Positions 8,795-9,041 of a stretch of DNA of 55,586 nucleotides are shown one piece after another. The translations under genes were made by a program, and so were the position numbers. This stretch comes from Peptostreptococcus sp. Its GTDB lineage: Bacteria > Bacillota > Clostridia > Peptostreptococcales > Peptostreptococcaceae. How positions within the stretch are numbered: position 1 is the stretch's first letter; each line of letters opens with the position of its first letter. The notes below the pieces were generated by a model that saw only the letters and a list, made by a program, of their open reading frames with translations, was not told the DNA's origin and searched no databases. Location: positions 1 through 55,586 of the forward strand of contig JAHHSS010000001.1 of NCBI GenBank assembly GCA_020025095.1, read 5' to 3'.

Positions 8795-8812
8795 TATAAT
8801 CCAGTAATTGCT
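8795..8812. repeat. Inverted repeat arm downstream of the precursor gene
   Basis: tataatccagtaattgct matches the reverse complement of 9024-9041 at 17/18. Confidence 0.85.
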
Positions 8813-8859
8813 TACTCCTATCCTACATATCCATCTATATATAAATTAGATTGAAACCT

Positions 8860-9000
8860 TTAAAATTCTGTATCTTCGTTTTCTGTTGCTGAAACAATGC
8901 TGCACCAACAGGTACAAGTACAACAGCCAGCTGCTGGTTTAATATCGTTAATCCTAGATTCTAATTTATCAAAAGATCTGTCGTTAATTTTAATAATCAT
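8860..9000 (-). CDS. RiPP (LAP/TOMM) precursor peptide, 46 aa: MIIKINDRSFDKLESRINDIKPAAGCCTCTCWCSIVSATENEDTEF
   Basis: Hand translated. AGGAGGAA RBS at 9006-9013; Cys/Thr/Ser-rich core after PAAG; lies between YcaO and the C protein. Confidence 0.93.
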   Translation of the reverse strand: MIIKINDRSFDKLESRINDIKPAAGCCTCTCWCSIVSATENEDTEF

Positions 9001-9023
9001 AATTCTTCCTCCTAAATAATATT

Positions 9024-9041
9024 AGCAATTACTGGACTATA
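9024..9041. repeat. Inverted repeat arm upstream of the precursor gene
   Basis: agcaattactggactata; partner of 8795-8812. Confidence 0.85.

What the first reader, a model, noticed from the sequence alone, without database searches (positions are those of the whole stretch)
8795..9041. 18-bp inverted repeat encloses the precursor gene and forms a full stem in the mRNA
Seen: 9041-9024 reads UAUAGUCCAGUAAUUGCU in the transcript and 8812-8795 reads AGCAAUUACUGGAUUAUA. The single DNA mismatch is a G-U pair on the coding strand, so all 18 positions pair, looping out the RBS and whole precursor ORF (~210 nt). Inference: this is an RNase III-type processing or stabilising stem, like those flanking rRNAs. 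It could release a stable monocistronic precursor mRNA and give excess substrate over enzymes from one operon. A less likely reading is invertible-segment or cassette-exchange ends.
Basis: partly seen in the sequence, partly recalled or inferred. Interest (0 to 1): 0.8.

Follow-up and report, generated by a model that had tools for sequence, protein, structure and literature searches.

The report
mRNA stem enclosing a bacteriocin precursor gene
A long-range RNA helix that loops out the small precursor-peptide gene inside a thiazole/oxazole-peptide operon is real and recurs, with unrelated sequences, in two other distant versions of the same gene cluster, so it is probably a selected mRNA element that sets the precursor message apart from the enzyme genes.

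Summary
The 18-nt inverted repeat (9024-9041 / 8795-8812, 17 Watson-Crick pairs plus one G.U on the transcribed strand, 211 nt between the arms) is confirmed. It lies in the two spacers flanking a 46-aa precursor gene. That gene sits between the YcaO (SagD-type) and SagC-type genes of a listeriolysin-S-like TOMM cluster on a mobile element.

Chance gives about 0.1 such repeats per window. The main evidence is comparative.
- A 92%-YcaO relative (L063) keeps both arms unchanged at 9% background divergence.
- Two roughly equidistant relatives (L057 and a Streptococcus-genus genome, G274; YcaO 67%) have unrelated spacers. Each still has an 18-22 nt helix enclosing the precursor's ribosome-binding site and ORF. 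G274 has two.
- All helices score better on the sense strand and dominate predicted ensembles (P 0.87-0.99).
- No inverted form, extra genomic copy, Rfam match or conserved arm sequence was found, which argues against DNA-level readings.
- More distant family members (12 precursors tested) lack the feature, apart from one ambiguous case.

RNase III is encoded in the host, and published B. subtilis RNase III targets have the same geometry. No cleavage or transcript-enrichment data could be obtained. The conserved RNA structure is well supported; its function in processing or stabilisation is inferred.

The parts
9024..9041 (-). 5' arm of the long-range helix. It starts 5 nt after the YcaO stop codon (9047-9049) and ends 23 nt before the precursor ATG.
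   Evidence: pair probability 0.98
8795..8812 (-). 3' arm of the helix, +48..+65 after the precursor stop. It ends 5 nt before the Shine-Dalgarno of the next gene.
8813..9023 (-). Enclosed 211-nt loop: precursor Shine-Dalgarno (9008-9013), the ORF and 47 nt of 3' spacer.
8860..9000 (-). 46-aa TOMM precursor peptide gene. It is nearest to the listeriolysin S family model NF033222 (28.5 bits, below the 33-bit cutoff).
   Evidence: homologues in L063, L057/L037 and G274
9047..10516 (-). YcaO / SagD-type cyclodehydratase gene, directly upstream of the helix.
   Evidence: TIGR03604, 225 bits
7785..8774 (-). SagC-type (E1-like, leader-binding) cyclodehydratase partner gene, ATG at 8774-8772, Shine-Dalgarno at 8781-8789, directly downstream of the helix.
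9049..9057 (-). Last YcaO codons plus part of the stop codon. They are predicted to pair with 8781-8789 (the Shine-Dalgarno of the SagC-type gene) as an outward extension of the helix. This is seen only in the window and L063.
   Evidence: 8 pairs, mean P 0.64-0.66; not seen in L057 or G274
3548..12777 (-). The whole cluster in transcription order: AraC/GyrI regulator (11920-12777), ABC ATPase (11230-11913), ABC-2 permease (10501-11229), YcaO, precursor, SagC-like, 237-aa ORF with weak SagB-like C-terminus (7053-7766), SagB dehydrogenase (6163-7053), two CAAX/CPBP proteases (5411-6181, 4836-5408), amidohydrolase (3548-4897).

Best explanation
The inverted repeat is the DNA image of a long-range helix in the sense-strand operon mRNA. 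The helix joins the YcaO-precursor spacer to the precursor-SagC spacer. It turns the precursor's ribosome-binding site and ORF into a closed domain of about 250 nt inside a polycistronic transcript.

The most likely role is selective processing and stabilisation. The 18-bp duplex is a substrate for the host's RNase III, or at least a barrier to exonucleases. The precursor segment would then end up with base-paired 5' and 3' ends and outlive the flanking enzyme-coding mRNA. This would give excess substrate peptide from a gene that sits in the middle of the operon, where it cannot use the usual arrangement of promoter-proximal gene plus leaky terminator.

Shown here: the helix exists in the sequence, its pairing recurs in three lineages with unrelated arms, it favours the sense strand, and the host encodes RNase III. 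Inferred: co-transcription of the genes, cleavage, and differential stability. I put the RNA-structure part alone at about 0.85. The confidence given here is for the full mechanism.
For: (1) Pairing is conserved without sequence conservation. Using one scoring scheme and one geometry (-200..-9 before the ATG against +1..+130 after the stop):
- Window and L063: 18 pairs, score 28.7, reached by 0 of 150 dinucleotide shuffles each.
- L057: 18 nt with 1 mismatch, score 22.8, reached by 0 of 150 shuffles.
- G274: two helices, 22 nt with 1 mismatch (score 30.4, reached by 0 of 300 shuffles) and 20 bp (score 30.2).
- Positional null in the window, 600 placements: 2 reach 22.8 and none reach 28.7.

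(2) The three lineages are about equidistant: YcaO 67%, 67% and 70% pairwise; SagC-type protein 39-50%. Their spacers share only short AT-rich words. The best spacer hits are each lineage's own repeat.

(3) Ensemble pair probabilities in 691-nt contexts are 0.98 (window), 0.99 (L063), 0.87 (L057) and 0.95 (G274, first helix). The MFE and centroid of L057 contain the helix.

(4) The position is conserved. The 3' arm lies at +48..+65 (window) and +47..+64 (L057). The second G274 helix has its 5' arm at -38..-19, against -41..-24 in the window, within 46-nt spacers of identical length.

(5) Strand: the sense score exceeds the antisense score in every case (28.7/27.7, 22.8/18.5, 30.4/27.0). Internal non-Watson-Crick positions are 6 G.U against 1 A.C.

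(6) Between the window and L063 there are 0 changes in 36 arm positions against 361 of 3956 elsewhere (P = 0.032).

(7) RNase III is encoded on G000 contig C70 (152.5 bits). In B. subtilis, RNase III targets are long-range intramolecular duplexes of 10-36 bp with up to 505 nt between the cuts (PMC11780869, passages read).

(8) Functional precedents. The as-48ABC transcript is cut endonucleolytically into pieces with different half-lives to set stoichiometry (PMC3942455, passages). The internal bottromycin precursor gene has a single-gene transcript of its own (PMC7113386, passages).
Against: - There is no transcript evidence. Of the two RNA-library runs that hold any of the stretch, one contig covers 8140-8380 and the other 10271-10461. 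Neither covers the precursor, and contigs cannot show ends or levels.
- The feature is confined to the close subfamily. Under the same test, L027, L031 and L018 (P 0.31-0.94) and 8 precursors in high-GC loci (P 0.39-0.99) have no enclosing helix.
- L028 has one in a 321-nt fold, but its score gives only P = 0.06 and it disappears in a 664-nt ensemble.
- Arm conservation against L063 is weak evidence. Compared with the non-arm spacer (7 changes in 96 positions), Fisher's P is 0.19.
- The G.U bias is not significant (P = 0.0625).
- In the nascent transcript the 5' arms are predicted to be about half paired before the 3' arm is made (0.32-0.59), so folding kinetics are uncertain.
- G274's YcaO gene is split by an IS30-like transposase, so that cluster may no longer be under selection.
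- No tool here predicts RNase III cleavage, and all the helices are AU-rich.
Confidence: 0.5

Rival explanations
1. The helix acts on translation rather than on decay. By looping out the precursor cistron it brings the YcaO stop codon next to the Shine-Dalgarno of the SagC-type gene. This would restore translational coupling between the two halves of the cyclodehydratase across the inserted precursor gene. It may also bring the precursor's own stop near its own ribosome-binding site, favouring re-initiation. In G274 the two crossing helices, one built from the last YcaO codons, would make the fold depend on ribosomes finishing YcaO.
For: - The helix system begins 5-10 nt after the YcaO stop and ends 5-17 nt before the next gene's Shine-Dalgarno in all three lineages.
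- In the window and L063 the last YcaO codons are predicted to pair with that Shine-Dalgarno (8 pairs, P 0.64-0.66).
- In G274 the 5' arm of the first helix is the last 7 codons of YcaO plus part of its stop codon (21 pairs, P 0.95; reached by 0 of 1000 shuffles and 0 of 96 control segments). It crosses the second helix.
Against: - The Shine-Dalgarno is not sequestered in L057 (P(paired) about 0.1-0.4) or in G274.
- Pairing of the YcaO end with the downstream spacer is not significant in the window or L063 (P 0.38-0.39) and is marginal in L057 (P 0.025; 8 of 96 control segments do as well).
- The Pro-Tyr-Pro codons at the YcaO end are complementary to purine-rich Shine-Dalgarno sequences in any case.
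Confidence: 0.2
2. It is a DNA-level element: the ends of an invertible segment (phase-variable precursor), cassette or MITE-like terminal repeats, or paired operator sites for a regulator.
For: An 18-bp inverted repeat flanking about 200 bp has the geometry of known invertons. The element carries a large serine recombinase (134-1900) and regulator genes (11920-13151).
Against: - Every assembly seen has the same orientation relative to the flanking genes: the window, the X17 contig bridging 8536-9714 with no joints reported, L063, L057/L037 and G274. Contigs cannot exclude a minority form.
- The arm sequences are unrelated between lineages, which a sequence-specific recombinase or repressor would not tolerate.
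- Wobble positions favour one strand.
- There are no other copies in the genome.
- The recombinase lies 7 kb away at the edge of the mobile element.
Confidence: 0.05
3. It has no function. The repeats arose by chance or as a mutational by-product (for example template-switch conversion of imperfect repeats) in AT-rich spacers.
For: - 6.5% of simulated windows contain a repeat of this quality somewhere.
- More distant family members manage without it.
- No expression data exist.
Against: Four helices occur in three lineages at the same topological position, each beyond all of its shuffles. Only 2 of 600 real-sequence placements reach even the weakest of them. Template switching usually acts over much shorter distances than 200 nt (general knowledge, not tested).
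Confidence: 0.07

Closest known systems
Long-range intramolecular duplexes cleaved by RNase III in Bacillus subtilis mRNAs (PMC11780869), and the stems flanking 16S/23S rRNA
   Same: A duplex formed by segments hundreds of nucleotides apart that loops out a functional unit. The published range is 10-36 bp with up to 505 nt between the cuts. Here the helices are 18-22 bp with 211 to about 350 nt between the arms. RNase III is present in the host.
   Different: No cleavage has been shown here. The looped-out unit is a complete translated cistron for a peptide substrate inside a biosynthetic operon, and the helix is maintained across diverged clusters.
Post-transcriptional processing of the enterocin AS-48 as-48ABC transcript
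   Same: A bacteriocin structural gene and its maturation genes lie on one transcript, and different half-lives of the processed pieces set the stoichiometry (PMC3942455, passages).
   Different: In AS-48 the structural gene comes first and one cut downstream of it suffices. The original study (Fernandez et al. 2008) was seen only as a cited reference and was not read. Here the gene is internal, and the predicted structure pairs both of its flanks.
Internal single-gene transcript for the bottromycin precursor btmD
   Same: The problem is the same: a precursor gene in the middle of an operon needs far higher expression than its neighbours (PMC7113386, passages).
   Different: The solution there is described as an internal transcription start site plus a modulator protein, not an RNA helix.
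Listeriolysin S / streptolysin S type TOMM clusters
   Same: SagB, SagC and SagD homologues, CAAX-type protease, ABC transporter and a Cys/Thr/Ser-rich precursor.
   Different: In LIPI-3 llsA is the first gene of the cluster. Here the precursor lies between the SagD-type and SagC-type genes, and the peptide scores below the family cutoff (28.5 against 33 bits).

Membership tests
RNase III long-range mRNA/rRNA processing stems | Double-stranded RNA of roughly 10-36 bp formed by distant segments of one transcript | tested here: met
   Predicted helices of 18-22 bp with pair probability 0.87-0.99. This is prediction only.
RNase III long-range mRNA/rRNA processing stems | RNase III-dependent staggered cuts on both strands (2-nt 3' overhang) | not testable with these tools
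   It needs end-mapping in wild type against an rnc mutant. The RNA contigs laid did not cover the site.
RNase III long-range mRNA/rRNA processing stems | Host encodes RNase III | tested here: met
   PF14622 match at G000:C70:10173-10550, 152.5 bits
Selective RNA processing and stabilisation in bacteriocin operons (AS-48 type) | Precursor and enzyme genes co-transcribed, with processed fragments of different half-life | not testable with these tools
   Genes are tightly spaced on one strand. The promoter scan found 37 promoter-like sites against 40.5 expected from shuffles, so it is not informative. No half-life data exist.
Invertible DNA segment (inverton) | Both orientations of the segment present in sequence data | tested here: not met
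   Only one orientation in the window, the X17 bridging contig, L063, L057/L037 and G274. Contigs cannot exclude rare variants.
Invertible DNA segment (inverton) | Repeat sequence conserved as a recombinase site among homologues | tested here: not met
   Arms are unrelated between lineages.
MITE / terminal-inverted-repeat element | Multiple copies of the repeat in the genome | tested here: not met
   Only the two arms, plus one 2-mismatch hit inside a coding region
Intrinsic terminator / attenuator after a RiPP precursor gene | Local GC-rich hairpin followed by a U run just downstream of the precursor stop | tested here: not met
   The only minus-strand terminator-like site nearby (8917-8900) lies inside the ORF. 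The helix has a 211-nt loop and no U tract.
Known RNA family (Rfam 15) | Match to a curated covariance model | tested here: not met
   0 matches at E <= 1 in 8500-9400, both strands
TOMM (SagBCD-type) biosynthetic cluster, listeriolysin S-like | SagB dehydrogenase, SagC-type and SagD/YcaO cyclodehydratase components | tested here: met
   TIGR03605 at 143 bits and TIGR03604 at 225 bits, both above cutoff. TIGR03603 at 69 bits is below cutoff, but TIGR03882 at 39.8 bits is above cutoff.
TOMM (SagBCD-type) biosynthetic cluster, listeriolysin S-like | Precursor reaches the listeriolysin S family model cutoff | tested here: not met
   NF033222 at 28.5 bits against a cutoff of 33. It is a related peptide, not a family member by this criterion.

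The most novel reading that the evidence does not exclude
The precursor cistron is matured like a miniature rRNA. RNase III cuts the flanking helix and releases a message of about 250 nt with paired ends that outlives the enzyme mRNA. Selection keeps this helix through complete sequence turnover. It would be a so far undescribed, transferable way for RiPP clusters to over-express a precursor gene that sits in the middle of an operon. In the Streptococcus-genus relative, a second, crossing helix built from the last YcaO codons would make the choice of fold depend on ribosomes finishing YcaO, linking precursor supply to enzyme synthesis.
Probability: 0.3. Interest if true: 0.75.

Novelty: new variant of a known kind. 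Interest (0 to 1): 0.55.

Why it matters
RiPP pathways need far more substrate peptide than enzyme. The known solutions are a promoter-proximal precursor gene with a leaky terminator, an internal promoter, or a single downstream cut.

A conserved long-range helix that isolates an internal precursor cistron would be a further solution that is easy to test. It could be recognised in genome mining as complementary spacers around a short ORF, and it could be reused in engineered operons. It would also add a natural, evolutionarily maintained example to the recent finding that RNase III in Firmicutes acts on duplexes formed across hundreds of nucleotides.

My literature searches (open-access library only) turned up no description of such a helix around a RiPP precursor gene.

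Tried and rejected
- Single-protein scan of species-representative genomes with YcaO: 65 pattern matches, none confirmed as a relative. The viral-contig scan gave 37 pattern matches, none confirmed. The plasmid collection had only relatives below 60% identity (85 records).
- Sequencing runs: 20 rows hold the stretch, from 11 studies. The four runs laid were at least 95% identical where they matched. They showed no change in the arms or the loop and no joints, so they gave no covariation and no inversion. The RNA-library contigs covered only 8140-8380 and 10271-10461, so nothing can be said about precursor expression.
- duplexfold on fixed 120-nt flanks was too permissive to discriminate. It was replaced by an ungapped helix score.
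- L028 (Anaerococcus): an enclosing stem appears in the 321-nt fold. It scores only P = 0.06 and is lost in a 664-nt ensemble, so it is treated as ambiguous.
- A conserved second helix between the last YcaO codons and the downstream spacer holds only in G274.
- I expected local hairpins after the precursor in L027, L028 and L031 to be terminators. The consensus scan found none on the coding strand.
- Antisense ORF in the loop (8897-9019, 40 aa): open for 40-42 aa in the window, L063 and L057 but only 11 aa in G274, so it is not conserved.
- Further close lineages: 0 of 401 genomes in the order of G112, and only the window's own genome among 401 in its own order. In the window's family only distant YcaO matches were found (5 of 111 other genomes, best E = 2e-20).
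- The SagC-type protein identities came from an out-of-frame translation, which was my error. They are replaced.
- The positional null did not exclude placements overlapping the finding. In the positional null, the 2 of 352 placements that reach the score are probably the locus itself, sampled from the two overlapping loci; I did not verify this.

Full report
**1. Observation**

The minus strand of 8600-9300 and the repeat finder (pair I3) confirm two 18-nt arms, 9024-9041 and 8795-8812. They are 17/18 complementary with 211 nt between them. On the coding (minus) strand the odd position is G9037 opposite U8799, a wobble pair.

The arms are unique. With up to 3 mismatches the window holds only these two copies, against 0.11 expected. 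The 1.52-Mb genome adds only a 2-mismatch hit inside a coding region on another contig.

It is the only inverted repeat of this quality (18 nt, at most 1 mismatch, spacing 20-400) in the window. In 200 Markov simulations the mean count was 0.095, and 6.5% of simulations had at least one. The repeat is therefore uncommon, but that alone is not decisive.

RNA folding of 8780-9060(-) puts the stem in both the MFE and the centroid (z = -2.42; 3 of 200 shuffles fold as well). In a 691-nt context its mean pair probability is 0.98.

**2. Context**

Pfam and NCBIfam identify a SagBCD-type TOMM cluster on the minus strand. In transcription order it holds:
- an AraC/GyrI regulator;
- an ABC ATPase and permease;
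- YcaO/SagD (9047-10516);
- a 46-aa precursor (8860-9000);
- a SagC-type partner (7785-8774);
- a 237-aa ORF with a weak SagB-like end;
- SagB;
- two CAAX/CPBP proteases;
- an amidohydrolase.

The precursor is nearest to the listeriolysin S family model but below its cutoff (28.5 against 33 bits). A relaxase, a large serine recombinase and an AbiJ-domain gene surround the cluster. Near-identical copies occur in sequencing runs labelled with seven different organisms. Both observations fit a mobile element.

The 5' arm starts 5 nt after the YcaO stop. The 3' arm ends 5 nt before the Shine-Dalgarno of the SagC-type gene. The precursor's own Shine-Dalgarno (9008-9013) and its ORF lie in the loop.

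**3. Finding relatives**

The large protein database holds close YcaO homologues at 92, 82, 68 and 67% identity, but their DNA could not be fetched directly. A profile scan of species genomes gave 26 loci at 42% identity or less. Many of them carry a related Cys-rich precursor right after YcaO, or one gene further on.

A metagenome scan with a pattern back-translated from the precursor core returned 57 stretches. Three of them hold in-frame precursor homologues: L063, L057, and L037, which matches L057 over its length. A search of 401 genomes of the genus of L026 (record title Streptococcus mitis) found one more, G274. There the YcaO gene is split by an IS30-like transposase, but the precursor and the SagC-type gene follow as in the window.

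| Relative | YcaO identity to window | Precursor | SagC-type protein |
|---|---|---|---|
| L063 | 92% | 93% | 89% |
| L057 | 67% | 78% | 43% |
| G274 | 67-73% | 78% | 39% |

These figures come from one search, which corrects an out-of-frame query. L057 and G274 are 70% (YcaO) and 50% (SagC-type) identical to each other. This makes three roughly equidistant lineages.

**4. The test**

One helix score was applied to -200..-9 before each precursor ATG against +1..+130 after its stop. The score is ungapped, allows G.U pairs and allows at most one mismatch.

| Locus | Helix | Position (5' arm / 3' arm) | Score | Shuffles reaching it |
|---|---|---|---|---|
| Window, L063 | 18 pairs | -41..-24 / +48..+65 | 28.7 | 0 of 150 each |
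| L057 | 18 nt, 1 mismatch | -165..-148 / +47..+64 | 22.8 | 0 of 150 |
| G274, first helix | 22 nt, 1 mismatch | -71..-50 (last YcaO codons) / +38..+59 | 30.4 | 0 of 300 |
| G274, second helix | 20 bp | -38..-19 / +63..+82 | 30.2 | above the maximum (23.8) of the same 300 shuffles |

The two G274 helices cross each other, so a nested fold can show only one of them.

With the same geometry at 600 random placements in the window, 6 reach 20.7, 2 reach 22.8 and none reach 28.7. Ensemble probabilities are 0.99 (L063), 0.87 (L057) and 0.95 (G274, first helix). The MFE and centroid of L057 contain the helix.

The arms share no sequence between lineages. A spacer-against-spacer search finds only short AT-rich words, and the best hits are each lineage's own repeat. 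The 46-nt YcaO-precursor spacer has the same length in the window and G274, and the 5' arms occupy nearly the same positions in it.

**5. Strand and selection**

Each helix scores higher on the sense strand than on the antisense strand. Internal non-Watson-Crick positions are six G.U against one A.C (P = 0.0625). This is suggestive only.

Between the window and L063 there are no changes in 36 arm positions, against 361 of 3956 elsewhere (P = 0.032). The comparison with the non-arm spacer alone (7 of 96) is not significant (P = 0.19).

**6. Limits of the pattern**

More distant family members do not have the helix. L027, L031 and L018 give P = 0.31-0.94. Eight precursors in six high-GC loci give P = 0.39-0.99. 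L028 is ambiguous.

The feature therefore belongs to the close, AT-rich subfamily with the gene order YcaO, precursor, SagC-type gene. In that subfamily 3 of 3 lineages have it. Two of those are independent of the discovery case.

**7. DNA-level readings**

Several observations argue against an inverton, cassette ends, a MITE or operator sites:
- No inverted configuration is seen in any assembly or in the bridging contig of run X17.
- There is no other copy in the genome.
- The arm sequence is not conserved between lineages.
- The pairing favours one strand.

Contigs cannot exclude a rare inverted form. Rfam has no match. No terminator-like site follows the precursor. The one nearby site lies inside the ORF.

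**8. Mechanism**

The host encodes RNase III. In B. subtilis, RNase III-dependent cuts lie in long-range intramolecular duplexes of 10-36 bp with up to 505 nt between them (PMC11780869, passages read). The helices here fall within that range.

Two precedents concern the underlying need:
- The AS-48 operon transcript is cut into pieces with different half-lives (PMC3942455, passages).
- The internal bottromycin precursor gene has its own single-gene transcript (PMC7113386, passages).

In listeriolysin S clusters the precursor gene comes first (PMC2522273, passages), so the internal position here is unusual for this type of cluster.

I therefore favour selective processing or stabilisation of the looped-out precursor cistron. 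This part is inferred. The RNA contigs available did not cover the precursor, so neither processing nor enrichment could be checked.

The main rival is a translational role. The helix places the YcaO stop next to the SagC-type gene's Shine-Dalgarno. In the window and L063 the last YcaO codons are predicted to pair with that Shine-Dalgarno (P about 0.65). That extension is absent in L057 and G274, and pairing with the YcaO end is significant only in G274.

**9. Verdict**

The RNase III and stability mechanism is plausible and fits published precedent, but it is untested.

I found no description of a long-range helix enclosing a RiPP precursor cistron in the searches. Those searches cover an open-access library only. 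I rate the finding a new variant of a known kind (selective mRNA processing or stabilisation; long-range RNase III duplexes) and of moderate interest.

Noticed in passing
window 134-1900, 13910-15241, 16691-17965: The cluster sits between a large serine recombinase, a MobA/VirD2-type relaxase and an AbiJ-domain gene. Near-identical copies are held by runs labelled with seven different organisms. It is probably an integrative mobilisable or conjugative element carrying the bacteriocin cluster.
   Followed up: partly
window 19795-28773 (-): A single 2992-aa ORF lies downstream of the element's genes. It was not annotated.
   Followed up: no
L097/L098 (G274), L098 1815-2759 (+): In the Streptococcus-genus relative the YcaO gene is split after about residue 411 by a 314-aa IS30-like transposase gene. 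The precursor, both helices and the SagC-type gene are intact.
   Followed up: partly
window 7053-7766 (-): A 237-aa ORF between the SagC-type and SagB genes has only a weak SagB-like C-terminal match (E = 7e-5). It may be a split or degenerate second dehydrogenase. The listeriolysin paper notes that llsB and llsY are each two ORFs in the staphylococcal cluster.
   Followed up: no
L010-L015, L018, L027, L028, L031: A wider family of Cys-rich precursors with a Trp-flanked poly-Cys core lies directly after, or one gene after, YcaO homologues. The records carry labels from Acidobacteriota, Chloroflexota-like, Polyangia, Nostoc, Enterococcus, Anaerococcus and Listeria aquatica. Two loci have tandem precursor genes.
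   Followed up: partly
window 9049-9057 and 8781-8789 (-): The Pro-Tyr-Pro-stop codons at the YcaO end are complementary to the Shine-Dalgarno of the SagC-type gene. They are predicted to pair with it (P about 0.65) as an extension of the main helix.
   Followed up: yes
window 8897-9019 (+): A 40-aa ORF runs antisense to the precursor inside the loop. It is open in L063 and L057 but not in G274, so it is probably a by-product of the Cys/Thr codon composition.
   Followed up: yes
L057 1750-1925: In L057 the YcaO-precursor spacer is about 177 nt instead of 46 nt. It is predicted to fold into several local hairpins inside the loop. Whether it carries an internal promoter was not examined.
   Followed up: no
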